Positions 14,001-57,487 of a stretch of DNA of 64,000 nucleotides are shown here, piece by piece (position 1 is the stretch's first letter; every line of letters starts with the position of its first letter). The position numbers and the translations under genes are program-made. The notes under the pieces are model-generated. The model was given only the letters and a program-made list of their open reading frames with translations, did not search any database and was not told the DNA's origin. Source of the DNA: a virus; IMG/VR virus record IMGVR_UViG_3300030060_003575, positions 1 to 64,000 of that record; one strand, given 5' to 3'.

Positions 14001-17000
14001 ATCAATAGAAGATAATACAGATAGTACAGAAAGTGGTATATTAGCCCTAAGCGTATTGAAGAATGGTACGCATTCTGATATGTTAACTATTAGCGGTGAA
14101 AATAATTTAGTTAAAGTCCACGGTAATTTTGAGGTTACAGGAACACAAACCGTTGTTGATACTGTAACTATGAATGCAGCAAATGCAATAGTGTTTGAAG
14201 GAGCAACTGCTGATGCATATGAAACTACATTAACTATTACAGACCCAACGGCTGATAGAACAATTACATTACCCAATACTAGCGGAACTGTTGCTTTAAC
14301 CAGTCAATTAGCAGGTGCTGGTTCAGATACTACTTATTCAGCAGGTACTAACATCTCATTGAGTGGAACTACTTTCAATGTAGATGATGCTTTCTTGAAG
14401 AATGATGGTGATGATACAACAACAGGAACCATTACTGCCGCAGGGTTAAACTTAACAGCCGCAAATGACCATCCTCTTGTAATACGCAATACAACTAACT
14501 CTGGATATGCAGGTATTCAATTCAGCGATAACTCAAACAACAGTTATGCACAAAGCGGTGAATTGAGATTTAATCACGCAGATAGCAGTTCACAAGGTAG
14601 TGGTGCATCATTCCACTTTACGACCACAGAAGCAGATTTAAGCATAGTCGGTGGTAAATTCATAGCATCAGACTCAGTTGCTACTGAACCCGGCTTTGGT
14701 TTTGCAGGTGATACTGATACAGGTATGTATCAGTCTGCTGCTAATACATTACAATTCGTAACTGCTGGAACAAACAGAATGCAAATTGCTTCCGGTGGAG
14801 GAGTTAGTATCAATAACGATGTTTCAATTACTAAGACATTACCAAGTAATAATGCAACAACTCTTAGTGGCGCACAAGCATTTGTTGTTGATTGCATTGA
14901 CGACCAATCCTCTTCTAGTGGGCCGGGTTTTGCAATTAGACTAGAAGCAACAAATGACCATAATGGCCCTAACTATACCAAAACCATTATGGGCGATGGT
15001 GGAGGTATGAGAGTTAAAAACATCTTTGGTAACTATGGGTTTAGTGAATGGTGGTTAGGTGGGACTGCTGATGGTAATAAGCCCATTATGTCTCTTGCGG
15101 CAGGTGGAGCCACAAGTGCAGGTGCGGCTCAAGATGGAATATTAACACTCTATTCAACTACTTCGGCTTGGGCAAACAATACATATTCACCAACCAATAA
15201 CACAGCAAAGGTTGTATTAGACGCAGGTGGAGATTCATACTTTAAAGGCGGAGATGTAGGTATAGGTACATCAACAATAAATGGTATACTTCATATTCGT
15301 GATGAAAGTGATGGTGATGACCAATTCTCTGGTATTCGTTTCTTCCCCGCAGATTCAGAAACAAGTGCTACTGATAATGATTTCTATCATAATATCACGG
15401 GTTTCAGAAAAGGAGGATTGATGTTAAGTGGTGGACAAAGTGGAAACTACACTAGGACATATGCAACACTCAACAATGATGGTTTCAAGGTATTCACGAA
15501 TGCAGGTGATAATACCGCAGTTAATATGTCTACACAACAAAGAATGTTAGTTCCTACAGGTGGAGGCGCAACTACATTCTATACAGATATATTAATAGAA
15601 TCATCAGCGACTTCTGGTGAAGCACCCGTTCTTGACCTATACAAAAACGATAGTGGCCCTGCTGTTAGCGAAGCAATGGGTTCAATTAAGTTCTCTGGTG
15701 AAAATGATGCAGACCAAAAAGTAACTTATGCTGAAATTCAGTCATTTATAGAAGATGAAACTGATGCTACTGAAAATGCTGCTTTACAGTTTTGGGTACA
15801 AGAAATGGGTACTCCAAGAGAGAATCTACGAATTGCATCCAACCAAATCACATTCAACAACACCGAAAGAAACGTAGATGTGTTGATTAAATCAGACGAT
15901 GGAAGTACAAACTTCTTCTCGGATGCTGGTACTAATCGTGTAGGAATAGGCACTACAAGCCCTGCTTCATTATTAGACGTAGCATCTGCTTCTACTTCTG
16001 TCATTAGACTATCAAACACGGATACTGCACTTACTGAAGACCAAATAACAGGTGAGATAATATTCGACCAATCAGATAGCACAAGTGGCGGAGATGGTAT
16101 AAGTGGGCGTATAGGTATGCGCTCGGCAACAAGACCGGATAATGCTAGTTACTTTGGTAATGCAGCAGATATGGGATTCTTTGTTTCAGGTTCGGCTGAT
16201 GGTACTGCTTCTAACAATGCGGCTTTAGAAGCAATGACTATTAGAGCAGGTGGTAAAGTTGGAATAGGCACTACCACACCAACCGGAAAACTAACCATTA
16301 CTGATGGAGGTCACGACATGATTCATCTGAATCGAACTGTGAACAACGCAGGGTACGGAATGGGTATAATTGGTAGAGCAGGAAACTCAGCATCCACAAC
16401 TGCCGCACATGAGTATGCCGCAATATTCCTACAAATAGAAGACAACACAGATGGTGCGGAAAAAGGTAGTATAGCATTCAATACATCAAGTGGTGGAACT
16501 GCGGCGGATTCAGGTAGCACTCATGCTATGCAAATTACATCTGCTGGTAATGTCGGGATAGGCACTACAAGCCCTGATGCTAAATTACGCATACATCAGA
16601 CTGATGGTTCAGTTCATGGATTAAAGGTATCTAGGAACGATTCAAGCACTTCTACCCCGTTAGTATTTTTACTTGATGATAGCGTATATGTGGATAGCCC
16701 TACACTTCATATAAGAAACGATAGAGCAGACCAATATGGTTATTCTGCTTTATTTGAGGGAAGAGTTGGAATAGGTCATGCTGGAAACACGGTAACTGCC
16801 CCTGACCAACAATTACACGTTGAAGGTAGTATTCTGATTGATGCGTACAATCAAGGTACAACAACAGTAGCCTCTAACTATTCAGATGGTGAGACTTCAC
16901 TTGTTTTAACTGATGCAAGCACATTTAATGAAAAGGGAACAGGAACAATTAATGGTGTGAAGTTTAGTTGGACAGCAATAAACTATGGTACAAACACTTT

Positions 17001-19425
17001 AACTGTTCCAGACCTTAATGCAAACTATGCTTCTGGTGTAACTGTTGCTGCTGATACAGGGTTATTCTTTAGAGAAGGGTTTGAAACTGCGGCTCAACCT
17101 AGTGTTACTATCTATGACCAAGCCAATAGCGGTGCTTCAAGAGATGACCTTTCACTTAATGCTAATAGTGCAATTAGAATGCAGTTGGCTAATAATGCGG
17201 AGGTGCTTCTAACTGATGATAAATTAAGCCTAACACCCGGTAATGAAGATGTTGCCTCATTTGTATTCAGAAACAGAGTAGACTTAGGTATGTTTGAAAG
17301 CGGATACAATCTACAACTTGCTGCACCAGAAAATGTTTATGTTCAAATAGATAGTAATAACAACAATGCTGGTACTAAAGGTTTCATTGTTAAGAAAGAT
17401 TCAAACAGCGTTGGTGGTGGTACTGAAATATTCAAAGTTATGGAAACAGGTGCAGTTACCATTAATCAAGCATTTACATTACCAACAGCAGATGGTTCAG
17501 CAAATCAGATATTAAAGACTGATGGAAGCGGTACAGTATCTTGGGCGGCTGATGGTTATGATGGTGATATTACTACGTTAGATATTGACGGTGGAACAGA
17601 CATAGGTGAAGCAATAGCAGACTCAGACTTAATTATTGTAGATAACGGAGCCGGAGGAACAAACCGTAAAGCAACGTTTAGCAGAGTTAAGACTTGGATT
17701 GGGGGTAATGTTTCAGAAGTGAGAATTAGAGATGCTAGAGCAGACGGTGATATAACACCAGATGACCACACTGATAGGGCTGCTTCATTCCATTTCACAG
17801 ATGATATTACTGGTAGCCCTAACTCTTGGGATGGAGTATTAACCATGAAAGGATGGGGTGACAGTTATACTGCTTGGCAATTACTATCTTCAAACGCTTC
17901 TTCAAACATACAAGTAAATCAACCTCTTTACTTTAGGACAGGAGAAGACGCCGCTTGGAGTAACTTAAGAAAGGTAATAACAGAAGATAACAATGGCCGT
18001 GTTGGTATTGGTAACGGTGGTAATGTTCAAGCCACTAACACACTAGAGATAAATCATTCTGGTGCTGATGGCGATAACGGAATAATGATTTCTAGAGATG
18101 TTGAAGAAATATCGCAAAACGATGTTCTTGGTGGTATTGGTTTTGATTCTCACGATGGTAATGACCCAAGCAGTGTTTTAGAAGCATCTGTTGCTATTGT
18201 TGCTAAAGCAAGGGAAGACCACAGTACAGGTGACAAAGGAGGATTCTTAGAATTCATGTATTCACCAACAAACCAAGATGATGATACAACAAGCAGTGTT
18301 GGTATGACATTTATAGATGGTAAGTTAGCCATAAACAATGGTGGGATTCACCCATTAACTACTCTAACTGTGTATCATAATGGCACCGATTTCAATGATG
18401 GAATGTTGATTGTTAGAAACGATGGAACTACTGTTGGTGGTGAATTACTTGGGGCAATTGGTTTTGATTCTAGAGACGGTAATGCTCCTTCACAGGCAAC
18501 ACAAGCATCTGCTGGTATTGCGGCTTATGCGGCAGAAGACCATAGCACAGGTGACAAGGGTGGGGCTTTAGCGTTCTTTACATCACCTCTTGACCAAGAT
18601 GATGATACTGCCTCTATCGAAAGAATGAGGATAAAGGCTGGTGGTTCTATCATGTTCCAAGATGATAACCCGAACAAGACAATCAGGGTTCATGCAGATA
18701 CTAATTCAAGCCCTCAACCAAGAATAGAAATGATGCGAGGTACGCATGATACATGGGGTAGTGGTGATAACTACAATGATTGGAGATTTATCAATGAAAA
18801 CGATTTAGTATTCTATTCTGGTACAAGTAGCATTTCAAGCGGTGCGGCAGTAGAAAGACTAAAACTATATTCAGATGGAAGTGGATTAGAAATAAACAAT
18901 GCTTACAAATTACCGGGAGCAGATGGTAGTAATGGACAAGTTTTAGTTACAAATGGTAGTGGAACATTATCATTCGCTGACCAATCAGGCGGGGGTGGAG
19001 GTTTAGATACAAACACCTTTGTTATTACTGGTGAAGAAGGAGACTTATATGCAGGTACAGGTAGCACAGGCAACGCTAACGGTTATCAATTCTCATACGG
19101 TAATGGTAGAGCAAACGTGCAAAATTCAAGCAGTGGAACTGACTTTGGTATTAACGTACCTGTGAATTGCACATTAACCAGAGTAGATGTAGTATTTGGA
19201 AACAATGGTAATGTGAGTACCGGAACCACTACATTCGTTGTAGTGAAGAACGGTACAAATCAATCAGGTAACTTAAGCACTAGCCATTCATCAGGTGTGC
19301 ATGATACTCATCATACAGGATTATCACATTCATTCTCAGCAGGTGATAGATTCAACTTAAGAACAACAACTTCATCTAAGCAAGTTGGCCCTATGAGAAT
19401 GACAGCATACTTTACTCCAACATGA
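11041..19425 (+). CDS. long tail fibre / receptor-binding protein (2794 aa)
   Basis: Repeated GxVGIGTTxP, LPxADGSxxQxLxTxGSG and EQVQDIVGAMF fibre modules. Confidence 0.85.
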   Translation: MPLNNPNFISSLATSITGSDATNDNDRLKDGTDTLNANLINALNIATSGSFVASGGNITMSAGSSNTIYAISEIKYFRDGKLLTMSALSSNNEPTWNINANFDWFGLIVIADGTETSEGGSDVIKFRGSSTLGETFVDGATPKNGDIPIAAVHISKASTNTATNRKIQFLGMGKLNSEFSAVNNGTETLRINKDGTITKGGQTITLPSTTGNVVTTGDTNTITESMIADNAIGNDQMANNAVNTNEIANDAVTFAKMTNISTNSFIGRNSAGTGNPENLTKTQALTVLNVEDGADVTDTTNVKAALNADLGGSMTIGDANDTVTIAGDLIVTGTTTTESVETVSTSNGVVFEGSVADNHEITLKAGTVTTDRTITLPNATGTIALTSSNITGNAATATQLQTGRTINGVTFNGTSNITVTAAAGTLTGNTLKSSVTASSLTSVGTIGTGTWQGTPIADAYISSASTWNAKLPTIDSHDLESNININNDLLLMHDDSASGTKEHKISIATMLGKITASQLAGSGKVFGTLPESGAEVNQNAFTTIAVSGQSNVIADQKTDTLTLASGGATTITTAAGSDTITVSSTNTTYSAGNGIALSGTTFSVAAGDALTQTSTGLKLADPATLSELTESTDNGSDKILLWDESTSAWKYMSITNLEDSIGTYTAGTGLSVSSNVFTHDSHTGEVTGSTALTIANNVVDEANLKVSNSPTNGYFLSAQSGNTGGLTWAVPANTQLSQEQVEDYVNGLLVAGSNITKTYDDAAGTLTIASTDTNTQLTTEQVQDIVGAMFTSNTETRIAATYEDGDGTIDLVVDDMTADTNTQLSNEQVQDIVGAMFSGNTETNITATYRDTDGTVDLVASSGDVVDDTSPQLGGDLDVQTHEIKTTSGNRDIILRPDGTGAVIVSDEDESFPSSPTPNKGKLTVLHDGGTGPTLLLSDTDGDEHGGPNLNIYRGSASPADDDIIGQITFQGVNDNDELAGYGRVKTSIEDNTDSTESGILALSVLKNGTHSDMLTISGENNLVKVHGNFEVTGTQTVVDTVTMNAANAIVFEGATADAYETTLTITDPTADRTITLPNTSGTVALTSQLAGAGSDTTYSAGTNISLSGTTFNVDDAFLKNDGDDTTTGTITAAGLNLTAANDHPLVIRNTTNSGYAGIQFSDNSNNSYAQSGELRFNHADSSSQGSGASFHFTTTEADLSIVGGKFIASDSVATEPGFGFAGDTDTGMYQSAANTLQFVTAGTNRMQIASGGGVSINNDVSITKTLPSNNATTLSGAQAFVVDCIDDQSSSSGPGFAIRLEATNDHNGPNYTKTIMGDGGGMRVKNIFGNYGFSEWWLGGTADGNKPIMSLAAGGATSAGAAQDGILTLYSTTSAWANNTYSPTNNTAKVVLDAGGDSYFKGGDVGIGTSTINGILHIRDESDGDDQFSGIRFFPADSETSATDNDFYHNITGFRKGGLMLSGGQSGNYTRTYATLNNDGFKVFTNAGDNTAVNMSTQQRMLVPTGGGATTFYTDILIESSATSGEAPVLDLYKNDSGPAVSEAMGSIKFSGENDADQKVTYAEIQSFIEDETDATENAALQFWVQEMGTPRENLRIASNQITFNNTERNVDVLIKSDDGSTNFFSDAGTNRVGIGTTSPASLLDVASASTSVIRLSNTDTALTEDQITGEIIFDQSDSTSGGDGISGRIGMRSATRPDNASYFGNAADMGFFVSGSADGTASNNAALEAMTIRAGGKVGIGTTTPTGKLTITDGGHDMIHLNRTVNNAGYGMGIIGRAGNSASTTAAHEYAAIFLQIEDNTDGAEKGSIAFNTSSGGTAADSGSTHAMQITSAGNVGIGTTSPDAKLRIHQTDGSVHGLKVSRNDSSTSTPLVFLLDDSVYVDSPTLHIRNDRADQYGYSALFEGRVGIGHAGNTVTAPDQQLHVEGSILIDAYNQGTTTVASNYSDGETSLVLTDASTFNEKGTGTINGVKFSWTAINYGTNTLTVPDLNANYASGVTVAADTGLFFREGFETAAQPSVTIYDQANSGASRDDLSLNANSAIRMQLANNAEVLLTDDKLSLTPGNEDVASFVFRNRVDLGMFESGYNLQLAAPENVYVQIDSNNNNAGTKGFIVKKDSNSVGGGTEIFKVMETGAVTINQAFTLPTADGSANQILKTDGSGTVSWAADGYDGDITTLDIDGGTDIGEAIADSDLIIVDNGAGGTNRKATFSRVKTWIGGNVSEVRIRDARADGDITPDDHTDRAASFHFTDDITGSPNSWDGVLTMKGWGDSYTAWQLLSSNASSNIQVNQPLYFRTGEDAAWSNLRKVITEDNNGRVGIGNGGNVQATNTLEINHSGADGDNGIMISRDVEEISQNDVLGGIGFDSHDGNDPSSVLEASVAIVAKAREDHSTGDKGGFLEFMYSPTNQDDDTTSSVGMTFIDGKLAINNGGIHPLTTLTVYHNGTDFNDGMLIVRNDGTTVGGELLGAIGFDSRDGNAPSQATQASAGIAAYAAEDHSTGDKGGALAFFTSPLDQDDDTASIERMRIKAGGSIMFQDDNPNKTIRVHADTNSSPQPRIEMMRGTHDTWGSGDNYNDWRFINENDLVFYSGTSSISSGAAVERLKLYSDGSGLEINNAYKLPGADGSNGQVLVTNGSGTLSFADQSGGGGGLDTNTFVITGEEGDLYAGTGSTGNANGYQFSYGNGRANVQNSSSGTDFGINVPVNCTLTRVDVVFGNNGNVSTGTTTFVVVKNGTNQSGNLSTSHSSGVHDTHHTGLSHSFSAGDRFNLRTTTSSKQVGPMRMTAYFTPT

Positions 19426-24832: not shown

Positions 24833-25680
24833 ATACTCATAAAACTACAATATTGGCATGTATTGTAATAATACTTAGGGTTGAACTCCTGTAACTCATA
24901 TGCCTTTATTAATTGTGTAATGTTCTTATACACCGCAGTTATACTTTGTTTCTTAACTGCTTCTACCTGTAGATAATTAGATTGTGGATAATACCAAGCC
25001 CAATTTGTAACGGGTATATTAGGGTCTAATCCATTATCTAACAACACTTGCTCTGGAGTATTCTCTATCAATATCTTGTAAAAGGCTAATTCTTTACGCA
25101 TCATAGTTAATTTATAATCTTTCCAAGGGCCAGTCTTTAATTCCATAGGTATATACTTACCATCCTGAACAAACATCCTATCAATTATACCTTGTAAATG
25201 CACAACATAATCCCTTTCTAAGACACACTTAGGATTATACGCATGTGGTATTGTGATTTCTGCATCTAGCATAATCTCATTGATAACTGGTAAATACTCA
25301 TCTACAGTATCATCCTCTTTAGCCTGTAGGAATCGTTCTGCTTCAAATATTGATATAGTCTTATACATCTCAGTGTAATCATCTATCGGATGCAGACCCA
25401 TGTTATAAGTCACTAACTCATCATAACTTAAATTCTCTGCCTTCTTAACATCAAAGTCATTGAAGAAATCCTCTCTACTATTGTGTACCGCAGTACCTTT
25501 AATCATAGCCTCCGTTGTTGATTGAGGTAACCTCAATGGATACGAAAACTCATACTTCTTAGGACACCAGTTAAAGGTTCCAAAAGAAGACTTTGTTATT
25601 TTTAATATTGGGTTCTCCGGGTTACTATATTCTGCCGGATACCATTTATATGTATATTCTCTCATTTTACCACCACTCAT
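24799..25680 (-). CDS. Cas4/RecB-like PD-(D/E)xK exonuclease
   Basis: CPKKY, GIIDR, ELKTG and C-terminal CQYCSFMSIC Fe-S cysteines. Confidence 0.85.
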   Translation of the reverse strand: MSGGKMREYTYKWYPAEYSNPENPILKITKSSFGTFNWCPKKYEFSYPLRLPQSTTEAMIKGTAVHNSREDFFNDFDVKKAENLSYDELVTYNMGLHPIDDYTEMYKTISIFEAERFLQAKEDDTVDEYLPVINEIMLDAEITIPHAYNPKCVLERDYVVHLQGIIDRMFVQDGKYIPMELKTGPWKDYKLTMMRKELAFYKILIENTPEQVLLDNGLDPNIPVTNWAWYYPQSNYLQVEAVKKQSITAVYKNITQLIKAYELQEFNPKYYYNTCQYCSFMSICPAAEEGAWL

Positions 25681-26584
25681 TTAAATTTGTTTGATTTATA
25701 TCTTGACTAATTGGTTTAGTGTCCCAACCCATTGCCATGTAAATAGGTTCTGCCTTTTTAATAACAGATAATGCATAATGCCTCCAATCAGGCTGGAAGT
25801 TACAATGCTTATTTAAGTCTACTAAACTAGAAGCCGCAAGATATGTAGGCCTCTTAGATACCCCTGTAATTGGATTAACGTAAGTAGGTCTAGATGGGTC
25901 ATCTGATACTCTCACATAAACATAAGAATCTTCTATGGGAACACCATAGACTTGATTCCACCATATAACACCTTCAATACCGCCACCAATACTAGGGTCT
26001 TTACCCATCATGGTTCTCAACAATAAGTCTTTACCACACTTACTACAAAAAGCATTTTGAGTAAACTCTTTCCTTATCTTTAATACGTCATCTATGTCAT
26101 ATTCTTTAGAACAAAAGTTACACTTGTAACGAACACGTTCTGGTTTGAACCTACTTCTGTTCGTAATATTCTTTATATCAATCTCACCATTCAGAACCTT
26201 GTTATATTCTGTCTTGAGATAGTTAGTTATTTCCTGTTCTGATTTCTTTTCAACCCACATTTTTAAAACTGTCAATTGAATATCTTTTGCTAATTGAGTT
26301 ATTGCCACTCTCTTTGCAGCAAAACCAGTCATAACAAATTCAGGCTCATCTAATGTAACACCGTCCTTCCAAGAAATAAGCCCCGCGTTTCTATTCTTAG
26401 TTATACCAACGCCTAAAGACTCATAATATTTCTCAAACTCTAATGTTACAGGGTGTTCTTTTAATCCTAAAAGATTAGGAAACAGTCCTCTTACATGGTT
26501 ATTCAATAAAGCCAATGTTTCTTCTGCTCGATTCATTGGCATTTCTACATAGATAGAATCAGTATGTCCATAAACCACTTTCAT
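25667..26584 (-). CDS. polB: family B DNA polymerase, C-terminal half (palm motif C + thumb)
   Basis: Starts MKVVYGHTDSIYV, then LEFEK..KNRNAG; CxxC...CxxC insert; ATG overlaps the upstream TGA. Confidence 0.85.
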   Translation of the reverse strand: MKVVYGHTDSIYVEMPMNRAEETLALLNNHVRGLFPNLLGLKEHPVTLEFEKYYESLGVGITKNRNAGLISWKDGVTLDEPEFVMTGFAAKRVAITQLAKDIQLTVLKMWVEKKSEQEITNYLKTEYNKVLNGEIDIKNITNRSRFKPERVRYKCNFCSKEYDIDDVLKIRKEFTQNAFCSKCGKDLLLRTMMGKDPSIGGGIEGVIWWNQVYGVPIEDSYVYVRVSDDPSRPTYVNPITGVSKRPTYLAASSLVDLNKHCNFQPDWRHYALSVIKKAEPIYMAMGWDTKPISQDINQTNLNEWW

Positions 26585-26760
26585 TCTACTCTCTCCCAAT
26601 GTTTTTCATACTTAGTATTAAATCTAAACATCCCGCCTATGTCATCTAGGTATTCAATTACATATACTGGTAGATACCAATCATGTTCTACATTTACTAC
26701 CATTGCTTTTTTGCTGGTTAGTCTATTTACTATTATATCATTTATTCTAAAAATTGTCAT
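26581..26760 (-). CDS. small hypothetical protein (59 aa)
   Basis: Manual translation MTIFRINDIIVNRLTSKKAMVV...; ATGA overlap with the polB C-half. Confidence 0.55.
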   Translation of the reverse strand: MTIFRINDIIVNRLTSKKAMVVNVEHDWYLPVYVIEYLDDIGGMFRFNTKYEKHWERVE

Positions 26761-27375: not shown

Positions 27376-29028
27376 TCATATTTCCATCACCTTAAACGCT
27401 GCTGCTCTAATTGCCTCTCTAGCACTAGCAGTAATACTAGCAGCCAAATCAACATCAGCCCAGCCAAACCCTTGATAAGCAACGATACCGTAAAAAGAGG
27501 CCATTAATCTTTTTACAGCAAGTTGATTGTTGCTCCACTTAACATAGTTATCTGGGTCAGTCTTCATCTTCTTTTTATATTCATCTCGCAATTCCTTTAA
27601 CTCTAAAACTGCTTTAGGTAAAAGCCCAAGTTTATCTGTTTTATAATAAAGCATTTGCTCATCATCCTCTATCGAGAAATCTCTAGGTGTTAGAATGTTA
27701 ACACCAAACTCAGTAGGTTCATCTGATTTGGTTTCCCATGATATATTCCGGGCTATCATCATAGAGGGATACAGTTGTGCAAAATCAAACGCAGCCACAC
27801 CTAGATGTAAACCGTTTGTCCCTTCTGTTTCGGGGTTGTAAATCATAGCCCCTTGATAATCAACCTTATCACCATGTTCACCAGTAGGTGCCTTCCAAGT
27901 AGCATTACGCATAAAGTATATACCACCCATGTTACTAGCATAAAAGCAAGCATCGAATGGTGCCTTTAGTAAACGCTGTAATGCAATAACTGCTTCCGAT
28001 GTGTAGTTCTCTTCATCTATCCTAACAAGAAGCATAACGTCAACTGCTGCATAATCAAGATAGTGCTTGGTATCTTCCAACCATCCTCTAGAAAAGAATT
28101 CATTCTTATCTGGAAACTTTTCCGATACAAGTTTCTTCTCACCTAATACAATATCAGCAACGTAATCTAATGCTAATGATGGTAGTGTTCCTCTTTGAGC
28201 ATCATTCCATTGTCTCTCAAAAGCCAAGTCTAGATTTAATACTAGCCTTCCTCTGATTGGTTGTTCAATAGGGCTATAATTGTTCACGTTCTTGGAAAGT
28301 TTGATACCTTCATCAAAATAAACCCCCTTCACATCATTATATGGAGATAATTTTCTGGGGTCTAGCCCGTTGGCATAGAGTCTTTCGATTAATTTAGGCA
28401 AATCGAACTTAGACCCGAACCAAGAAATCATCATATCTGGGTCTTCTCTAGTCAAGTGACCCACAAAATTCTCTAACATTTCTTTTTCAGTTAGAAACCC
28501 TTCACCAATAAGATTTCTTTTCGGTGGTGTATCTCTAGGCAACCAATAAGAAACTCTATTTCTTTTAGTGTAGTTATCATAGAAAACCATACAAGTGATA
28601 GCACCATCGTGTTCACCCCCCTGCTGCCATTCTAAATCCCAATACCACTTTCTGAGATTATACTCAGGCATCTCAGATATGTGGTCTATTGCATATCTAT
28701 AATGATAAGCAACGTCTGCTTCATAGGTTTGCTTCCACTCCTTTCTGAGTGTTCGCATATATCCGGGCTTCGGTGGAAACCATGTTACCTTCTTTAACGG
28801 TTCACCATCTAGATTAACAGCGTCACCGCTACTGTCATACACCAAATCAATACCAATGCTTTTACCAAAATCCCGAAAAGAAACCCGGTGTATTTCTCTT
28901 TCACTTTGTTTAATATAAAAATAAGGTGGTGCTTCATTATACTCAACTTCCCTTTCTTGTCTATTATTATTCTGGTCTCTCCATCTTAGACCTATCATAT
29001 TATTTTTATCTACTGTACTAATTATCAT
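27376..29028 (-). CDS. polB: family B DNA polymerase, N-terminal half (3'-5' exonuclease + motifs A and B)
   Basis: WDLEW, FDLP, YAAVD exo motifs; DFAQLYPSMM (motif A); KRLMASFYG (motif B); ends before motif C. Confidence 0.9.
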   Translation of the reverse strand: MIISTVDKNNMIGLRWRDQNNNRQEREVEYNEAPPYFYIKQSEREIHRVSFRDFGKSIGIDLVYDSSGDAVNLDGEPLKKVTWFPPKPGYMRTLRKEWKQTYEADVAYHYRYAIDHISEMPEYNLRKWYWDLEWQQGGEHDGAITCMVFYDNYTKRNRVSYWLPRDTPPKRNLIGEGFLTEKEMLENFVGHLTREDPDMMISWFGSKFDLPKLIERLYANGLDPRKLSPYNDVKGVYFDEGIKLSKNVNNYSPIEQPIRGRLVLNLDLAFERQWNDAQRGTLPSLALDYVADIVLGEKKLVSEKFPDKNEFFSRGWLEDTKHYLDYAAVDVMLLVRIDEENYTSEAVIALQRLLKAPFDACFYASNMGGIYFMRNATWKAPTGEHGDKVDYQGAMIYNPETEGTNGLHLGVAAFDFAQLYPSMMIARNISWETKSDEPTEFGVNILTPRDFSIEDDEQMLYYKTDKLGLLPKAVLELKELRDEYKKKMKTDPDNYVKWSNNQLAVKRLMASFYGIVAYQGFGWADVDLAASITASAREAIRAAAFKVMEI

Positions 29029-50511: not shown

Positions 50512-50598
50512 TGGTTGCGGGAGGGGGATTTGAACCCCCGAAGCACTACGCACCGAATCTTAAGTCCGGCCCCTTTGACCATACTTGGGAATCCCGCA
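50512..50598 (-). tRNA. tRNA-Leu(TAA) with encoded CCA
   Basis: Acceptor TGCGGGA/TCCCGCA, anticodon arm CCGGA-CTTAAGA-TTCGG, long variable arm, T arm GGGGG-TTCAAAT-CCCCC, A-CCA end. Confidence 0.93.
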
Positions 50599-50855: not shown

Positions 50856-51437
50856 TTATTCACGCATATTAACTAGCAAAAGAACCAAGTATCCTATTAG
50901 GTCTTTTACTACGTCTTCATCAGATTCTAATGATGCATTACCTTGCATCAACCTGTTCAATTTATCATCTATGCGAACTTTCAACTGTTCTGTCTTATCA
51001 GCCCTAGAAAATATTCTTATTGGCTGTAAAGCGGAATCACCATATTGGTCATTCTTATCAAGGAGAAACTGTGTTATTTCTCCCATTGTCTTTGAAATCT
51101 TAAAACTGGATTCGTCTTGGCCCTTCACAGGCTTGGCCTGCTCTTTCGCCTTATTATACTTACCCGCTATCAGATTAGGTTGCATATGTGTTCCCCATTG
51201 AGAGGAACCCATTATCTTTTTAAGATAAGGTTCATTTATTATCTTCTCTTTAGATTGACTCTTTGGTTTTCTACCACCATTTCTTTTACTGATTGTTCCT
51301 TGAGCCTGTAGTCTGTAAATGCGTTGTCTTACAGAACCGACTGTTCTATTCATTTTCTTGGCTATTGCTATCGCAGTTAGCCCTTGCTTCCACAGTTTCA
51401 TTAACTGTGTTTCTTCTTTCTTTGTCCATTTCGTCAT
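50856..51437 (-). CDS. N-terminal HTH fused to DUF1599-like (nucleotide-modification-associated) domain
   Basis: WTKKEE...IAKKMNRTVGSV HTH; KNDQYGDS...RIDDKLNR...DLIGY. Confidence 0.7.
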   Translation of the reverse strand: MTKWTKKEETQLMKLWKQGLTAIAIAKKMNRTVGSVRQRIYRLQAQGTISKRNGGRKPKSQSKEKIINEPYLKKIMGSSQWGTHMQPNLIAGKYNKAKEQAKPVKGQDESSFKISKTMGEITQFLLDKNDQYGDSALQPIRIFSRADKTEQLKVRIDDKLNRLMQGNASLESDEDVVKDLIGYLVLLLVNMRE

Positions 51438-51630: not shown

Positions 51631-52166
51631 ATAGAGAGAGAGGGGTGGAAAAGTATGTAATAATGTAAATATATTATAATGTATTAGATATATTATCTAA
51701 CTCTTCCATTCTATCTCACTTTCATTTCCAACTCCAATTGGAAACGTGGAAACGTTTGACCCCCTTATCATATCATATAGGATATGTCATATGCATAAGT
51801 GTATAGTATATACATATATTATACATAGAGAGTCTTCCCGGTACATATCGAATCAATGGCGCGATTTAACATCATAACATTTTACGCCATAAATTCTGAT
51901 TAGTATATACTGGCCTTTGGTGGAATACGTGCTTGTAAGGCCATTGATTGTAATTGCCACCAACAATTCTATAGATGGCAGGGGATATATAAGTCGGCGG
52001 CACCCCTCGATGCCCCTCGTCTATAAATATCCTATTTGTCGAACCATATGGTATCAACAACTTTGTCCAGTTGAAACCTGATTTTGAGGAGTCCGACAGG
52101 AAAGGGCGACTTTATCCCTTTCCTGCCAGACAAGAATTGCTGCTAACTAGGCGTGAAAGAAGGGTT

Positions 52167-52676
52167 TTATTCCTCTTCCTCCACAAAGTCGTATTCTGCA
52201 CAAGCGGCAAGTCCATCTAGTGAACCATCCCATGAGCCGTCCTTGTAAAGTTCCCTTGCCGTCTGCTTTGCTTTCTTAGCGAGGGTGTTTGCGTAATCAT
52301 TAGCATCTGTGAACACAGGTGGCCCTGCGCTCTTTCCGTGCTTTCTGAGCAATGGCTGAGAATACTGCGCTGTGCTCTCAAAGAACGTATATGCAGCCTC
52401 TCGGATTGCTTCAGCAGCAGAATCAACCACTACTGATGCAGCAGCAGGTAGTAATCCTTGATTACCTCTGCGCCATACAACCTTTCCTGAAGGGAAGTCC
52501 TTCAGCATTGCTTTAATGGATAGAGCCAAAGCAGCCCTATTATCCACATTGTTGTCACCAGTCTCTATTAGCATAGTTGCTAGAGACCTTACATCATCGG
52601 GGATTGTTCCATCAACGTCACCCTCGATGCATGAGTTTACCTTCATCTTTACCGATTCCCAATTTACTTCATCCAT
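52167..52676 (-). CDS. cassette A protein, paralogue of 54406-54939
   Basis: 169 aa from MDEVNW; shares HGKSxG, YA...KK and WDGS with the cassette B protein. Confidence 0.75.
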   Translation of the reverse strand: MDEVNWESVKMKVNSCIEGDVDGTIPDDVRSLATMLIETGDNNVDNRAALALSIKAMLKDFPSGKVVWRRGNQGLLPAAASVVVDSAAEAIREAAYTFFESTAQYSQPLLRKHGKSAGPPVFTDANDYANTLAKKAKQTARELYKDGSWDGSLDGLAACAEYDFVEEEE

Positions 52677-52738
52677 AATATTCACTTTCCTATTTTTTCT
52701 TTCTTTGCCCGTTAGCGGCATAGTTGTCAATTCTCTGG

Positions 52739-52748
52739 GATATATAAG
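52739..52748 (-). promoter_or_regulatory. archaeal TATA box, cassette A
   Basis: CTTATATATC on the minus strand abutting the cassette-end hairpin. Confidence 0.6.
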
Positions 52749-54405
52749 AGGTTTCAAACAAAGCGAAACCATATGGTAATGAGAGTTTTTTCAGGATACA
52801 AAGAAACATGCATAGAAAAACGCGCGAATTTTCCTTAGTCTAAATTCTTAGTGTGTTTTCTGCACCTCAGTTTCCACTGGTTTTGTTATTTAACATCACT
52901 TCTTTTACGCCCATTACATGACCATATGGATAGTTAGTACGTAGTTACGAGAGGGTCTATGAGAGTCGAGGACTCGTTTAGACTGCTATAAAGTCGAATA
53001 GACGTAAACTGCGTTAAGCAGTAGTAGACGGTAGCATAGGGTGAAGTAAAAGAAGGATTGCGGGTGACTGGTCTACGTACTCAGTTTCCCGATACATGAG
53101 GATATTTTACATGCTTACGCATAATTAACACCATATGATAGCAGTGTAACGTTAGTTAAACGTAATGAATAATGGTGTTTAATGAAACACCAATGAAATG
53201 TAGTAACGATACGTGTAACGAGGTATCTGATTGCTTCTACGAAGACGCTACGCTACAATCATATGGTGTTGATAAAACATAGGTGGCACTGAAAAGGTAC
53301 CGCTTGTTTACAATATCCTTATGATTTGCTCCGCTTTTTACTATAGCCTATGCTACGTGCTTAATGCACTGTCGCAAAAAGAGTTCCCAAATCATATGGT
53401 TGGTTAAGGTTTCCTCTGGTTACCAGTGTGAGGTGCGGAACTAAGGTGCATTACGCACCAACGAAGGTGGTTTGTTCCGGCACGAACATGGTAAGCGGAG
53501 GTGCCAATTATACAACCTCAATGGGATTGGTCTATTCATCTCATTTAACCAACCATATGGTTATAATTCCTCTGGTATACGATTAAAGATGATTAGACAC
53601 ATTAAGTGTCCATCAGGATACCAGAGGAATATATACCCTAATAAAAAAAATAGGGTCTTGCGTCATAAGGCCTATATCCCTTAGCCTGTAACTTGACAGC
53701 ACACCTCGTCCGGTACTACTGTGCGAGAGAAAATATGAATTCTTCATAATCCCTACATAAATGTAAACGGACGCTAAATGCGTCTTATCGTTTTATATAC
53801 ATTTATTCTCGCCCGTTGTACCACGACGATTGTGCTGCAATTTACAGCCTAACGCCTATAAAACCTTATCTCATACCATATGGTCGTAGACCTTAAGGGA
53901 ACGTTAAAGGAATCTAACTCCGCGCACTTGTACGCATTGTCTCATGCACCTTTGTTGGTGCTAAATGCACCTTTTCGACAATGGCACGAAGTCCACTTCC
54001 GTTATATCCTTTAACTTCTTCGACCCATATGATACTAATGAAATGGTGTTTGTAAAAAAAGTCGCGGTAACTTGTTAGCGTGACTACTCTACGTTAGTGC
54101 GTTAAGCACTAATCTAGATGTAGTAGCATAGGGTTTTTTACAAACAAGTATCTGATAGTCCAAGTATTCCTATCATATGGGTTTAGGTTCCAAAGATATA
54201 CAAGAGGTGAAGATAAAAGAAAAATGCATTAAGCATGAGCCGTAGGCGGTTCTTTTATTATTGGCGGAAGCCATGCTTCACCTATTGTATAGCACGGAAC
54301 AACTACCCTCAATTGGGGTCATGTTCTCTAAAGTGAGAACATGTTACCATATGGTCATAACTTTGTGAAAAAGACCAGAAGAGGTTGGTGGCGACTAAAA
54401 CCAAC

Positions 54406-54939
54406 CTATTCTTCTGAACCCCCATTATCGGTGACGGCTGGATAGCCATCATCGGTGTACGACCCGTCCCAGTAGTATCTCTTATCGGTACCATTGGTAA
54501 ACGCATTGAAAGCGGCATTCAAGAATAGCCTCTCTTTCTTGGTCATATCATCTGCGTATGCAGATGCACCATCATCCATAGTGGAGTAAAGAACCCCACC
54601 GGACTTTCCGTGTGTCTTCGCAGTACCAGCCACTAGAGGGTACACGACTGTTGCCATGTTATCCCTGAAGGTTGCTAGGTACTTGTCGAAATCGGACTTA
54701 ACGGCAGTTGTCATTAGAGACTTTCTACCGCCACCAATAGGTGAATTGTCCAAATCAGCGAATACTACGCTGATGCTCGACCAGTGCCTCTTCCTGAGGT
54801 CAGGCTGTGCATCGCCTATTGCGAAGAGACCATCTACAATGACCCTTCTTCCCTCATGCTCTGGGTTCGCGTCAAACCACTCATTGACGTGTTCTTTCTT
54901 GTTGTTCCATACGCTGTCTTCCATGCTGTAATCAACCAT
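54406..54939 (-). CDS. cassette B protein, paralogue of 52167-52676
   Basis: GGAGTGA RBS; motifs shared with cassette A protein. Confidence 0.75.
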   Translation of the reverse strand: MVDYSMEDSVWNNKKEHVNEWFDANPEHEGRRVIVDGLFAIGDAQPDLRKRHWSSISVVFADLDNSPIGGGRKSLMTTAVKSDFDKYLATFRDNMATVVYPLVAGTAKTHGKSGGVLYSTMDDGASAYADDMTKKERLFLNAAFNAFTNGTDKRYYWDGSYTDDGYPAVTDNGGSEE

Positions 54940-54997
54940 ATCTATCACTCCTGTGAATTAGGTGGTTTAGTCGCCACCATAGCACTATTTTCAATGG

Positions 54998-55007
54998 TAT
55001 ATTTAAG
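54998..55007 (-). promoter_or_regulatory. archaeal TATA box, cassette B
   Basis: CTTAAATATA at the equivalent position. Confidence 0.6.
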
Positions 55008-55239
55008 GTACAGTTTAAACAAAGTAACGTACCATATGGGTGCAGGTTTAAGAATGCGTAGCATTCTCATTTAGTTGCTCGGCAACGATAAACGAGCAAC
55101 AAATGGCAAACCAAAGCCCCGTGGGAATGTTTGAGGCACGTAGTAAGATGCTGCTGGTGTCCTTAGACTTGGCTTAATGCCAACGAGTCCAGCAGCACCT
55201 GTTATCTACTTCCATATGGTCATACTTTGTTAAACAGAC

Positions 55240-55600
55240 CATAATCGCTCAACAATGATGCAACGATTTAAACTTGCGCTAACATCAATTTTACAAGTCG
55301 TTGTCTTACTCACTATTGAGATGCATCGTTTTTTGGTAACTGCCAGAAACGTGCAAAACTGGCTCAAGGATGGATGAGTGGATTCGTTTCCTTACCCTCA
55401 AGGTTACATGGGTGTTAGTTCATGCCATTAATTTTGCATGGGCTTTAACCCGTACCTACCAATAACCGACCCGCTAAGGTCATTGTAGTGCCTGTCTTTT
55501 TCTTCGACCGACTCCCTGTGCCGCTAAGCACCGATTATTGTGCCTTTCACCCTAACAACGGTGATATTCAGCCAATCCGGGTCACTCCGTCAAGTGACAT
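55240..55600 (-). ncRNA. candidate structured non-coding RNA (cassette C)
   Basis: TATA-like CTTAAGTAAA at 55618-55627; no ORF of 60 aa or more; many hairpins, including two TTAGCG-loop hairpins. Confidence 0.5.
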
Positions 55601-55819
55601 AGCAATAATATTGATGGTTTACTTAAGGTAATGTTTAACAAAGTTACATTACCATATGGGTTGGCATTAAGCCAATGTTTAGACATTCCCTCATTTATCT
55701 GGCTGCGAGTACCGCTAGGCTTACATTAACCTCTGAAGGAGGTCTAAACAACCTCTTATCTTCCGAGGTTAATTGATACTCTCATCCATATGGTATTGAA
55801 CTTTGTCAACAATACCTGA

Positions 55820-56020
55820 CTAACTGGAATCATCTCCAGTTAAGCCAAGATAATCATTCAATGCTAGATTCAAATCATCCATGACTTGACCCAAATCATC
55901 ACCTGATACACGTAGTTTACTGATTGAAAGCACCAGTGAAGAACCAGATTTCATATGCTTGACTTCAAGCACATATTTGGGTTCGTTGATTTGTTGAACG
56001 ATTGTTTTTTCTTCTGTCAT
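55820..56020 (-). CDS. cassette D small protein (66 aa)
   Basis: GGTGA RBS at 56025-56029; TATA CTTATAAAT at 56144-56152. Confidence 0.7.
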   Translation of the reverse strand: MTEEKTIVQQINEPKYVLEVKHMKSGSSLVLSISKLRVSGDDLGQVMDDLNLALNDYLGLTGDDSS

Positions 56021-57487
56021 AATATCACCAAAGGTGGAGGGGCCATTGAACCAAGTGACTACTTACAGGCATTGAATGCTCGGCGGCAATATACTGTATT
56101 ATCCAGTGTTGGTTGGCCCCTCTATATCAATAGGTATTATGTAATTTATAAGGTAATGTTTACAAAGCCCATTACCATATGGTTTAGTAAGTGACGGTCT
56201 TACTTGCCAGGGAAGGTACGTATACGCGCTTCAGGAACGTAAGTCGTTTAAACGCATTAAGCGTTAGACAAGTGAACGCGCGTAAACGTCCTGGAACTGG
56301 CAAGTAAGAGCAGGAACGCACGTTAAAACCCCGTTAAACCTGAAGGGCATAAGGAACCTCCTTTAAGGCACTCTTGCTTAACGTAACTTAGACAAGACAT
56401 ATCTTCCGTTAAACGCTTTTGCTGGTACTTAATGTACCTACCACTCCATATCTGTCTTGTCTAACTTACGTTAAGCAAGGTAAACCTTAAATCCAACTCC
56501 ATATGATACGAGGTAGGATTCATCTGGGCTTTAGGCCCAAACTAAGGTGGTATGAATCCTTTGAAGTATCTTATGAGGATAGGATAAGCAAGCGGTATAT
56601 CCACAAGGGAGAAACCTATGCAATATTCCCACCATATGTTCACATAAGTGGGCGAACTCAATGGGGATTTATGGGCAATTACCTCCATCTTCGTTCATGT
56701 CTTATATCAAGACATTGTGTGTATTATCATATGCCCATTACCATATGGTTCCAGCATCGCTGGAAGATAACTTGCAATGGAAGCATACAGCAATGAAAGA
56801 CGCATTAAGCGTCCACTTAGGTGTAGCAGGCTGTATGCATCCTAAATGCAAGTTATTCACAGCCCCATTTGAGGATATACATCCATATGGTTATTAATCA
56901 CTTTCTACAAGAATGTCCTCCAAGGGCTTGTAAAATGTCCTAGAGACGCATTAAGCGTCTAACAAAGGTGAAGGGACATTTTAAGGGGATTCGCCGTAGA
57001 AAGTTACAACGCAGTGTTAATCACCTCAGGTTGCTTAACGCTTCGCTACAACCATATGCTTTGCATTCGATTTTTTTTCTTATTAAACATTCGTTTGTTT
57101 ACCCGATTTTGGCATAAGATTTTGTTCTACCTAAGAACACTTTGATATAGAAGCATCTTAGATGCGCGTATAGAGAAGGCTCAGGTGTGCTAAACATATT
57201 TTAATTAATTAAAAATAGATTCGCGGTGCTTCAAGGATACAAAGAAACAAGTATGCTCTAAACACTGCTATTCAACCATTGATACACTGTGATTAAATAA
57301 CAAACAAAGGCTTATTCTGGAAATGCACAAGTTTTATATAGAAAAAAAACGCAAGTGCCGGATAAATTACAGGTCAAATTTTGAAAAATAAAGGTCTAAA
57401 AAATTCCGCCAAAAAAATGGGGTAAATAGAGAATGAAAAAACTACCATTAAAGAAGGTAAAATTAACAAAGTTTAGGTGGTGGGACT

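What the first reader, a model, noticed from the sequence alone, without database searches (positions are those of the whole stretch)
53008..56960. Conserved pentaloop C-(A/G)TTAA-G on covarying stems, in both orientations
Seen: 15 short hairpins with different but perfectly paired stems share a C-G closed pentaloop. ACTGC-GTTAA-GCAGT 53008; GTGC-TTAAT-GCAC 53357; GGTGC-ATTAC-GCACC 53445; GACAC-ATTAA-GTGTC 53596; GACGC-TAAAT-GCGTC 53770; GGTGC-TAAAT-GCACC 53957; TTAGTGC-GTTAA-GCACTAA 54094; ATGC-ATTAA-GCAT 54224; TTGGC-TTAAT-GCCAA 55169; TTGGC-ATTAA-GCCAA 55661; AACGC-ATTAA-GCGTT 56251; GGTAC-TTAAT-GTACC 56424; TGGGC-TTTAG-GCCCA 56525; GACGC-ATTAA-GCGTC 56799; AGACGC-ATTAA-GCGTCT 56944. Most cap the long unit hairpins, roughly one per unit. 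Compensatory stem variation implies selection on structure. Both ATTAA and its reverse complement TTAAT occur, favouring a DNA-level (cruciform/ssDNA) signal or unit inversion over a single RNA strand. Established analogies are HUH-nuclease hairpin sites, integron attC sites and N4 hairpin promoters; none is claimed here.
Basis: partly seen in the sequence, partly recalled or inferred. Interest (0 to 1): 0.85.

Follow-up and report, generated by a model that had tools for sequence, protein, structure and literature searches.

The report
Invariant pentaloop hairpins in magrovirus cassettes
An ocean virus of archaea carries a 5-kb array of small gene-less folded DNA units, each marked by the same five-letter hairpin loop on a freely varying stem. 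Related viruses have shuffled and flipped these units at one palindrome, and no searched paper describes this kind of element.

Summary
In 53000-56960 there are 11 C-(A/G)TTAA-G hairpins with perfect stems, against 0.02 expected from shuffles and 1 in the other 70 kb.

The contig looks like a group-B magrovirus (split PolB, RFC, ATP ligase). The hairpins mark ORF-less units of about 110-250 nt. Together with four promoter-bearing cassettes, these units form an array (52044-57059) jointed by the palindrome CCATATGG.

About 40 related marine viral and metagenome contigs carry such arrays, and no cellular genome does. 88 hairpins with stems of 5 bp or more have the loop ATTAA, on many different stems. 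One sister lineage uses GCTTA instead.

The stem is 5 bp and Watson-Crick. G.T pairs are no commoner than A.C. Orthologous units show compensatory changes. The loop always lies in the half of the unit nearest the 5' joint (77 of 78 units).

Near-identical viruses have the same units re-ordered and inverted exactly at the joints.

Best reading (0.4): the hairpin is a strand-specific protein recognition site on single-stranded DNA of non-autonomous, attC-like cassettes. Main rival (0.3): an array of small structured RNAs. No promoter, recombinase or Rfam family was found.

The scan has noted CCATATGG arrays on other magrovirus DNA before. The pentaloop units are new to it.

The parts
52044..57059 (.). 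Whole cassette array: about 20 units jointed by CCATATGG or near variants, lying between the minus-strand replication block and the plus-strand structural block; GC 41-44% against about 35% elsewhere
   Evidence: 14 exact CCATATGG in the window against 1.1 expected, 13 of them at 52044-56890; composition; flanks collinear with relative L001 while the interior is reshuffled
53008..53022 (+). Hairpin ACTGC-GTTAA-GCAGT
53357..53369 (-). Hairpin GTGC-TTAAT-GCAC (ATTAA on the minus strand; the unit is inverted)
53445..53459 (+). Hairpin GGTGC-ATTAC-GCACC (loop variant), followed by AACGAAGGTGG and enclosed by helix GGAAC/GTTCC
53596..53610 (+). Hairpin GACAC-ATTAA-GTGTC
   Evidence: folds at -3.9 kcal/mol as single-stranded DNA
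53770..53784 (.). Hairpin GACGC-TAAAT-GCGTC (variant loop, ATTTA on the minus strand); orientation not settled
53957..53971 (-). Hairpin GGTGC-TAAAT-GCACC; on the minus strand the loop reads ATTTA and is followed by AACAAAGGTG
54094..54112 (+). Hairpin TTAGTGC-GTTAA-GCACTAA; the ortholog in L001 has TGACGC-ATTAA-GCGTCA
   Evidence: 3 stem pairs changed on both sides
54224..54236 (+). Hairpin ATGC-ATTAA-GCAT
55169..55183 (-). Hairpin TTGGC-TTAAT-GCCAA (sense on the minus strand)
55661..55675 (+). Hairpin TTGGC-ATTAA-GCCAA, directly abutting the joint CCATATGGG
56251..56265 (+). Hairpin AACGC-ATTAA-GCGTT, left half of a double unit
56424..56438 (-). Hairpin GGTAC-TTAAT-GTACC, right half of the same double unit, convergent with 56251
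56525..56539 (+). Hairpin TGGGC-TTTAG-GCCCA (variant loop), followed by AACTAAGGTGG
56799..56813 (+). Hairpin GACGC-ATTAA-GCGTC
56944..56960 (+). Hairpin AGACGC-ATTAA-GCGTCT; the ortholog in L001 has TGCGC-ATTAA-GCGCA
52045..52775 (-). Promoter-type cassette encoding conserved protein A (about 169 aa from MDEVNW). Both ends carry CCATATGG-T-hairpin modules with an ACTTTGT-type loop; TATA-like box near 52740-52747
   Evidence: RNA contigs from two runs end at 52719, about 26 nt below the TATA box
54348..55038 (-). Promoter-type cassette encoding conserved protein B (177 aa), a paralog of A; TATA box TTAAATA at 55000-55006 on the minus strand
   Evidence: RNA contig reaches 54977; inverted in L001
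55213..55658 (-). Promoter-type cassette for a manA-like structured RNA (55367-55597)
   Evidence: RF01745 at 39.2 bits, E=1.5e-7; present in all five arrays at 42-54 bits; RNA contigs at depth 870-1885
55787..56181 (-). Promoter-type cassette with a 66-aa ORF (55820-56020)

Best explanation
The hairpin has a 5-bp Watson-Crick stem of free sequence, a C-G closing pair, an ATTAA loop and purine flanks. It is the signature of a family of ORF-less fold-back units ('H units') in one lineage of group-B magroviruses. These units fill a cassette array whose joints are the palindrome CCATATGG.

Shown: the units are discrete modules. They are gained, lost, duplicated, moved and inverted exactly at the joints. 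Loop and stem geometry are under selection. The hairpin is polar: the strand reading ATTAA runs 5'->3' away from the nearest joint, and the hairpin lies 10-90 nt inside the unit.

Inferred: the hairpin is read on a single strand, more likely DNA than RNA. A protein would bind it when a joint is opened by nicking, strand displacement or replication. The extra A that turns a symmetric C-TTAA-G into C-ATTAA-G would then tell the machinery which strand and direction it is on, much as the extrahelical bases of integron attC sites do. On this reading H units are non-autonomous cassettes, comparable to attC-only cassettes or MITEs. They would ride a recombination system whose enzyme is unknown. The candidates, purely by association, are the two paralogous array proteins A and B, which occur in every array examined.
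For: - Enrichment and specificity.
- Conservation: 5 viral contigs, about 35 metagenome contigs and no cellular genome. 88 C-ATTAA-G hairpins with stems of 5 bp or more, against 7 or fewer for any other loop.
- Defined 5-bp stem: pairs 1-4 are 63-87% Watson-Crick, and the sixth pair only 28%.
- No wobble preference: G.T 38 against A.C 37 at 242 sites, and no one-sided changes in 230 cells.
- Compensatory changes in orthologous units (also G2 AGGGC against G3 AGGAC).
- Polarity: the loop is in the 5' half in 77 of 78 non-redundant units.
- Mobility at the joints: W against R; G2 against G3, with cassettes 90-97% identical yet fully re-ordered and inverted; an inverted paralog pair within one array; contigs of other DNA runs continue with a different neighbour at 52921.
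- No TATA-like box inside or upstream in the sense direction.
- H-unit orientation is independent of the transcription direction of neighbouring promoter cassettes.
- The boundary hairpins of the promoter cassettes lie outside the transcripts, so joint-side hairpins there act on DNA.
- The hairpins are stable as single-stranded DNA, -3.9 to -6.4 kcal/mol.
- Lineage-specific loops (ATTAA against GCTTA/GCTAA) fit a co-evolving reader protein.
- B-family proteins co-occur with CCATATGG arrays in 15 of 15 viral contigs.
Against: - No recombinase, transposase or HUH nuclease was found. PF00589, PF00239 and PF01797 are absent from the contig, which is about 75% complete.
- A and B are all-helical, with no match to any known fold or family, so their role is guesswork.
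- A 5-bp stem will not extrude readily from duplex DNA, so a single-stranded stage must be assumed.
- The units have branched, compact folds with purine-rich, C-poor unpaired flanks, and the sense strand has more G.U pairs (337 against 241). Both would suit RNA, although the energy difference vanishes after a composition control.
- No excised circle or recombination intermediate was observed.
Confidence: 0.4

Rival explanations
1. H units are genes for small structured RNAs, forming an array of sRNAs. On this reading the AUUAA pentaloop is a protein-binding or tertiary-contact element on RNA, and the units are transcribed from their 5' joint inward.
For: - Each unit folds about 17 kcal/mol better than shuffled sequence, into branched structures.
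- Compensatory changes occur in long stems.
- The region is richer in GC than the rest of the genome.
- Unpaired flanks are A/G-rich and C-poor on the sense strand.
- The sense strand has more G.U pairs than the antisense strand (337 against 241, p=1e-4).
- The polarity relative to the joint resembles that of the promoter cassettes.
- A highly expressed structured RNA, the manA-like RNA, lies in the same array.
Against: - No TATA/BRE-like element inside or upstream in the sense direction, whereas the promoter cassettes have an obvious one 26 nt above the observed RNA ends.
- No wobble pairs in the pentaloop stem.
- The sense-over-antisense folding advantage disappears after a composition control.
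- Orientation is unrelated to neighbouring transcription.
- No Rfam family matches any H unit.
Confidence: 0.3
2. The hairpins are single-strand initiation or priming signals, or origin elements, of the viral replication origin. The origin would lie at the switch between the divergently oriented replication and structural gene blocks.
For: - The array sits exactly at the strand switch and at the minimum of cumulative GC skew.
- The hairpins are strand-specific and stable as single-stranded DNA.
- In relative R the left half of the array holds minus-sense hairpins and the right half plus-sense ones.
- The virus encodes its own replication apparatus.
Against: - Orientations are intermixed in W, G2 and G3.
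- Unit number and content turn over rapidly between near-identical viruses, which is unlike an origin.
- Sister lineages with the same array and the same replication genes lack any dominant pentaloop.
- The GC skew here follows gene orientation, so it does not locate an origin by itself.
Confidence: 0.12
3. The hairpins are DNA hairpin promoters or other transcription signals, of the kind used by phage N4, for a virion or viral RNA polymerase.
For: - Stem length (4-7 bp) and strand specificity resemble N4 early promoters (own knowledge).
- Two giant ORFs of unknown function (2420 and 2794 aa) could hide a polymerase.
- A purine-rich tail follows the hairpin.
Against: - No genes lie downstream of the hairpins. 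The units are ORF-less and end at the next joint.
- The loop is 5 nt, not 3 nt.
- The expressed cassettes use ordinary archaeal TATA promoters.
- No polymerase family was detected in the giant ORFs.
Confidence: 0.05
4. The hairpins are a chance or neutral by-product of palindrome-rich DNA and have no function.
For: The units are inverted-repeat-rich, which by itself generates many hairpins.
Against: - An invariant loop on dozens of different stems across about 40 contigs.
- 0.02 hairpins expected by chance against 11 observed.
- Compensatory substitutions.
- Fixed polarity.
Confidence: 0.02

Closest known systems
Integron attC sites and gene cassettes
   Same: Sequence-variable elements with conserved structure at cassette boundaries. 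Arrays of discrete cassettes are gained and lost at a fixed short core. Some cassettes are ORF-less. An asymmetry in the fold (extrahelical bases there, the extra loop A here) could mark strand and direction.
   Different: The core is the palindrome CCATATGG, not GTTRRRY. Cassettes lie in both orientations. No IntI or other tyrosine recombinase is present. There is no attI site and no common promoter. Most units here are the folded element alone, carrying an invariant loop sequence that attC sites lack.
PeSL (promoter-early stem-loop) cassettes of T4-type phages (Arbiol et al. 2010, PMC2839356)
   Same: A hyperplastic region of a viral genome in which short conserved promoter-plus-stem-loop modules flank small accessory genes and mediate modular shuffling between close relatives. 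The promoter-type cassettes here (A, B, manA-like RNA, 66-aa ORF) fit this pattern.
   Different: The host is an archaeon and the promoter is a TATA box. The joints are an exact 8-bp palindrome, and inversions are common. The H units with the pentaloop have no promoter, no gene and no counterpart among PeSLs.
Shufflons and multiple-inversion systems (R64 Rci/sfx; p15B Min)
   Same: Several adjacent DNA segments are re-ordered and inverted relative to each other at short repeated sites. G2 against G3 looks like a scrambled shufflon.
   Different: Those systems invert coding segments of one gene using a dedicated recombinase and asymmetric sites, and segment content stays fixed. Here units are also gained and lost, the site is palindromic, no recombinase was found, and the segments are mostly non-coding.
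Hairpin signals read on single-stranded DNA: IS200/IS605 and REP/RAYT hairpins, HUH Rep and relaxase sites, N4 virion-polymerase promoters
   Same: A short stem of variable sequence with conserved loop or flank nucleotides, strand-specific and found in either orientation.
   Different: No Y1 or HUH enzyme was detected (the controls for two of these families did not ring). There is one hairpin per unit rather than one at each end. The loop is 5 nt, against 3 nt in N4. No conserved cleavage motif lies at a fixed distance.

Membership tests
Integron attC / gene cassette | R''/R' core sites with the consensus RYYYAAC...GTTRRRY at cassette ends | tested here: not met
   All joints are (C)CATATG(G); no GTTRRRY pair flanks the units.
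Integron attC / gene cassette | Adjacent IntI tyrosine recombinase with attI and Pc | tested here: not met
   PF00589 gives no six-frame match in the 75-kb contig, while the control genomes all ring. The contig is about 75% complete, so a gene on the missing part cannot be excluded.
Integron attC / gene cassette | Cassettes all in one orientation relative to Pc | tested here: not met
   Units and promoter cassettes occur in both orientations.
PeSL regulatory cassettes | Promoter plus stem-loop module flanking small genes, with shuffling between modules | tested here: met
   This holds for the four promoter-type cassettes only. Each has a CCATATGG-T-hairpin module followed by a TATA box, RNA contig ends lie 26 nt below the TATA box, and the cassettes are shuffled between relatives.
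PeSL regulatory cassettes | The same module is present in the pentaloop (H) units | tested here: not met
   No TATA-like box at a fixed place inside or upstream in the sense direction. No ORF.
Shufflon (Rci/sfx) | Rci-type tyrosine recombinase or an invertase | tested here: not met
   PF00589 and PF00239 are absent from the contig.
IS200/IS605 or REP/RAYT elements | Y1 HUH transposase and subterminal hairpins at both ends | tested here: not met
   PF01797 is absent. There is one polar pentaloop hairpin per unit, in the 5' half.
N4-type hairpin promoters | 5-7 bp stem with a 3-nt loop, upstream of early genes, read by a virion RNA polymerase | tested here: not met
   The loop is 5 nt and the units are ORF-less. 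A polymerase in the giant ORFs could not be shown or excluded.
Any Rfam RNA family | Covariance-model match of an H unit | tested here: not met
   No H unit matches at E<=1 in the window or at E<=0.1 in four relatives. Only the manA-like cassette and a tRNA match.
manA RNA (RF01745), for the cassette at 55213-55658 only | Score at or above the gathering threshold of 55.2 bits over the full model | tested here: inconclusive
   Full-length matches at 39.2 bits (window) and 41.9-54.3 bits (four relatives), E from 1.5e-7 to 4e-11, all just below threshold.

The most novel reading that the evidence does not exclude
The array is a new kind of structure-directed DNA recombination system of archaeal viruses. 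Under this reading, the palindrome CCATATGG plus a strand-marking hairpin (C-ATTAA-G, or C-GCTTA-G in a sister lineage) is the substrate. The ORF-less H units are its non-autonomous mobile elements. The machinery is the unrecognised pair of helical paralogs A and B, possibly together with the abundant manA-like RNA that accompanies them in all five arrays examined for it.
Probability: 0.18. Interest if true: 0.9.

Novelty: categorically new. Interest (0 to 1): 0.74.

Why it matters
Magroviruses are among the most abundant viruses of the surface ocean, and their hosts (Marine Group II archaea) are uncultured. One magrovirus lineage devotes about 5% of its genome to 15-25 gene-less folded units that share one invariant loop. 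The units turn over and flip between near-identical strains.

If the hairpin is a recombination or mobility signal, this would be a cassette-exchange system with no known enzyme. It could explain how these viruses trade accessory genes. If the units are RNAs, they would form a large new family of viral structured RNAs, lying next to a highly expressed manA-like RNA.

Either answer can be tested with hairpin oligos, recombinant A and B proteins, and existing long-read and strand-specific ocean data sets.

Tried and rejected
- **Bacterial-phage readings.** I first read the contig as an N4-like, crAss-like or Bacteroidota phage. ACTTTGT looked like a -7 box, and I tried sigma-70 spacing. I dropped these once the split PolB, RFC and ATP ligase, together with earlier scan notes, pointed to a magrovirus, and the TATA boxes fitted the RNA ends.
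- **Annotated phage collection.** It gave no DNA match, and only 25% PolB identity to haloviruses.
- **RNA coverage.** In the two metatranscriptome runs laid on the stretch, RNA contigs cover only A, B, the manA-like RNA and the HTH gene. Nothing lies on the H units or on the structural genes. The RNA strain may carry other units, so this is not counted as evidence.
- **Gap in one DNA run.** The uncovered stretch 55105-55613 in one DNA run is likewise not counted.
- **Strand asymmetry of folding.** Raw energies favour the sense strand (p=3e-4). The effect vanishes with composition-matched shuffles. An earlier dinucleotide-shuffle script timed out.
- **G.T against A.C in terminal stems.** There were too few cases to judge (6 against 3).
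- **Tail motif AAC-N-AAG.** It occurs in only 12 of 78 units, so it is a sub-family feature. It is not a usable Shine-Dalgarno site, because no start codon follows at a proper distance.
- **Pairing with the manA-like RNA.** I saw no loop-complementary segment that switches between the ATTAA and GCTTA lineages.
- **Proteins A and B.** Foldseek against PDB found nothing with E<=0.001. VIA-align found only generic helical matches with Z<=6.4. PDB sequence profiles gave nothing. The ESM Atlas leads Pam3_Gp34 and DUF5895 (score 0.87) were not borne out by Pfam scans of 55 family members.
- **C/D box, H/ACA, K-turn and BHB readings.** I considered these by eye and found no matching boxes or bulges.
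- **Chance pattern hits.** L008-L010, the 11 genome-contig loci and some metagenome loci with tandem CCATATGG repeats are unrelated.
I replaced it with a viral-contig scan using the B alignment.
- **Complex prediction was not used.**

Full report
**1.

Hairpins of the form C-[NTTAA or TTAAN]-G number 14 in the 75,141-bp contig, and 12 of them lie in 52-57.1 kb. In 53000-56960 there are 11 RTTAA-type hairpins. Shuffles give 0.024 on average, and the other 70 kb holds 1. The hairpins fold as single-stranded DNA at -3.9 to -6.4 kcal/mol.

**2. What the contig is.**

The window is 1-64000 of a single linear IMG/VR record of 75 kb, estimated to be about 75% complete. It encodes:
- a PolB split into two genes (27376-29028 and 25667-26599);
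- an RFC-like clamp loader, an ATP-dependent ligase, ribonucleotide reductase and a PD-(D/E)XK nuclease.

Its best PolB relatives in the annotated phage collection are tailed haloarchaeal viruses, at 25% identity. A split PolB is the published hallmark of group-B magroviruses, viruses of Marine Group II archaea (PMC5434244). Earlier notes of this scan gave me that lead, and the gene content agrees with it.

The array lies between the minus-strand replication block and the plus-strand structural block. It is richer in GC than the rest of the contig, 41-44% against about 35%.

**3.

The region 52044-57059 is cut into about 20 units by the palindrome CCATATGG. The window has 14 exact copies against 1.1 expected, and 13 of them lie in the array. 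There are two kinds of unit.

*Promoter-type cassettes.* There are four of them:

| Cassette | Coordinates |
|---|---|
| Protein A | 52045-52775 |
| Protein B | 54348-55038 |
| manA-like RNA | 55213-55658 |
| 66-aa ORF | 55787-56181 |

- Each carries at both ends an inward-facing module, CCATATGG-T-stem-(ACTTTGT-type loop)-stem-ACC.
- On one side this module is followed by a TATA-like box such as TTAAATA or TTATATA.
- Metatranscriptome contigs from two runs of one study end at 52719 and 54977, each about 26 nt below the TATA box.
- The Rfam manA match starts at 55597, also about 26 nt below its TATA box.
- These are therefore ordinary archaeal transcription units, and their joint-side hairpins lie outside the RNA.

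*ORF-less units of about 110-250 nt ('H units').* Some are doubled, at about 330 nt. They fold on themselves and carry the pentaloop hairpin.

**4. Conservation.**

A pattern scan found arrays in four other IMG/VR contigs. It also found about 35 arrays on marine metagenome contigs and none among one genome for each of 185,579 prokaryotic species.

In 37 arrays (116 kb):
- Among pentaloop hairpins with stems of 5 bp or more, C-ATTAA-G occurs 88 times. The next commonest loops (GTTAA, ATTTA) occur 7 times each.
- Of 242 distinct C[AG]TTAAG sites, stem pairs 1-4 are Watson-Crick in 63-87%, and the sixth pair in only 28%. The stem is therefore a defined 5 bp.
- G.T pairs (38) are no commoner than A.C pairs (37).

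An alignment of 46 hairpins shows three or four pair types at the three outer stem positions and two at the penultimate pair, with no one-sided change. It has 83 double changes, against 28 in shuffles. That set was chosen for pairing, so the unselected counts carry more weight.

Orthologous units of W and its relative R keep their structure through changes on both sides. This holds in the pentaloop stem (TTAGTGC to TGACGC; AGACGC to TGCGC) and in the long stems.

The flanks of the hairpin are purines, and C makes up 6-10% of them.

A sister lineage (G001 and two more contigs) uses C-GCTTA-G or C-GCTAA-G instead. More distant lineages with the same joints have no dominant pentaloop.

**5. Polarity.**

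In 78 non-redundant single-hairpin units, the loop centre lies at 0.08-0.50 of the unit length when the unit is read as ATTAA. It is below 0.5 in 77 of 78, with a median of 0.32. In double units the two hairpins converge, each near its own joint. The hairpin is thus tied to the nearest joint and to one strand.

**6. The units move.**

- *W against R.* The flanks are 70-82% identical and collinear. Inside the array only four cassettes are recognisably shared, and three of them are inverted and re-ordered.
- *G002 against G003.* They share about 20 cassettes at 80-97% identity in a completely different order and orientation, with breakpoints at the CATATG joints.
- *Within one array.* An inverted paralog pair exists.
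- *Other DNA runs.* Contigs break at joints, and one contig continues from 52921 into a different neighbour.

The presence of both ATTAA and TTAAT is therefore explained by unit inversion.

**7. DNA or RNA?**

For DNA:
- There is no wobble preference.
- No TATA-like box lies inside the units or upstream of their 5' joints.
- H-unit orientation is unrelated to the direction of neighbouring promoter cassettes.
- The analogous joint-side hairpins of promoter cassettes are not transcribed.

For RNA:
- The folds are compact and branched.
- Unpaired regions are purine-rich and C-poor.
- The sense strand has more G.U pairs (337 against 241). The energy advantage disappears with composition-matched shuffles.

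No H unit matches any Rfam family. I put DNA ahead, but not by much.

**8. Candidate partners.**

- Proteins A (about 169 aa) and B (about 179 aa) are paralogs (hhalign probability 98%).
- They share the motif (R/T)HGKS(G/K)G and a C-terminal EEE.
- Each sits in its own cassette in every array.
- All 15 viral contigs that encode a B relative, down to 27% identity, carry 11-23 CCATATGG copies around it.
- Both are predicted to be all-helical (pLDDT 87 and 78). Neither matches any known fold or family.
- No tyrosine recombinase, serine recombinase or Y1 transposase is on the contig.
- A manA-like RNA cassette is also present in all five arrays. It is the most abundant piece in the RNA contigs, at depth 870-1885.
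- A 2026 preprint reports that manA RNAs self-assemble into cages (10.64898/2026.07.01.735769).

**9. Literature.**

The magrovirus papers I read do not mention palindromes, hairpins or repeats in this region. Full-text searches for the palindrome gave only primers.

The closest published analogue for the promoter cassettes is the PeSL system of T4-type phages (PMC2839356). For the H units the nearest analogy is the integron attC site, but every defining feature of attC that I could test fails.

The scan has reported CCATATGG cassette arrays in at least seven other magrovirus genomes. None of those notes mentions the pentaloop.

**10. Verdict.**

The hairpins are real and conserved, and they are under selection for both loop sequence and stem pairing. 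They mark a previously undescribed class of gene-less, invertible, rapidly exchanged units in a viral cassette array. The mechanism is inferred, not shown.

Noticed in passing
window 55367-55597 (-), cassette 55213-55658; L001 11683-11916; L012 9507-9734; L014 4127-4350; L015 9117-9353: A manA-like structured RNA (RF01745, 39-54 bits, just under the gathering score) sits in its own promoter cassette in all five arrays of this archaeal virus lineage. It is the most abundant piece in two metatranscriptome assemblies (depth 870-1885). manA was described from cyanophages and gamma-proteobacteria, and a 2026 preprint shows that it forms RNA cages.
   Followed up: partly
window 52167-52676 (-) and 54406-54939 (-): Two paralogous all-helical proteins (A about 169 aa, B about 179 aa) share the motif HGKS(G/K)G and an acidic EEE tail. 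They have no Pfam, PHROG, PDB or fold match. They occur in every CCATATGG array examined, in variable orientation, and both are covered by metatranscriptome (RNA) contigs.
   Followed up: partly
window 52737-52776, 55000-55039, 55620-55659, 56140-56182 and the opposite cassette ends 52044-52080, 54347-54378, 55212-55243, 55786-55818: The boundary modules CCATATGG-T-stem-(ACTTTGT-type loop)-stem-ACC have covarying stems and stand at both ends of the promoter cassettes. On one side a TATA box follows, and the RNA contig ends (and the start of the manA match) lie about 26 nt below it.
   Followed up: partly
L015 (G001) 8540-13727; L091, L092: A sister lineage has the same joints and A/B/manA cassettes, but its unit hairpins carry C-GCTTA-G or C-GCTAA-G with an AC/GT penultimate pair, not C-ATTAA-G. 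More distant lineages have no dominant pentaloop.
   Followed up: partly
L015 11160-11238, L014 5210-5291, L012 6922-7005 (-): An 80-nt unit end (CTGGGGCAAACT...CACGAACTGCAACCATATGG) is about 96% identical between G001 and G003 (88% to G002), although the A and B proteins of G001 are only about 50-57% identical to those of G002/G003. The 5' parts of these units differ. This suggests recent exchange of part of a unit between distant lineages.
   Followed up: no
3' ends of many H units, e.g. window 53095-53131; many metagenome loci: Next to the 3' joint many H units carry a second small AT-rich hairpin with a GTA or ATA triloop or a GTAA tetraloop (for example ATAAAC-GTA-GTTTAT, ATGC-GTAA-GCAT).
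   Followed up: no
window 3405-10667 (+) and 11041-19425 (+): Two giant ORFs (2420 and 2794 aa) in the structural block have no Pfam or PHROG match at all.
   Followed up: no
window 27376-29028 (-) and 25667-26599 (-): The family-B DNA polymerase is split into two genes about 0.8 kb apart. This is the published marker of group-B magroviruses.
   Followed up: partly
window 50512-50598 (-): A tRNA-Leu(TAA) lies beside the array. In the DNA runs this stretch has about 25 times the depth of its surroundings, with loose ends on both sides, so other organisms in the samples share it.
   Followed up: no
window 50856-51437 (-); L015 14373-14864: An HTH protein (PHROG 1485 plus a D5-like regulator N-terminus) is a conserved neighbour of the array in the relatives and is covered by RNA contigs.
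   Followed up: no
window 52921, 53551, 55104/55614, 56582/56756: Assembled contigs of two independent DNA runs break at or near the joints. One contig joins 52921 to a different neighbour, which suggests several arrangements within natural populations.
   Followed up: partly
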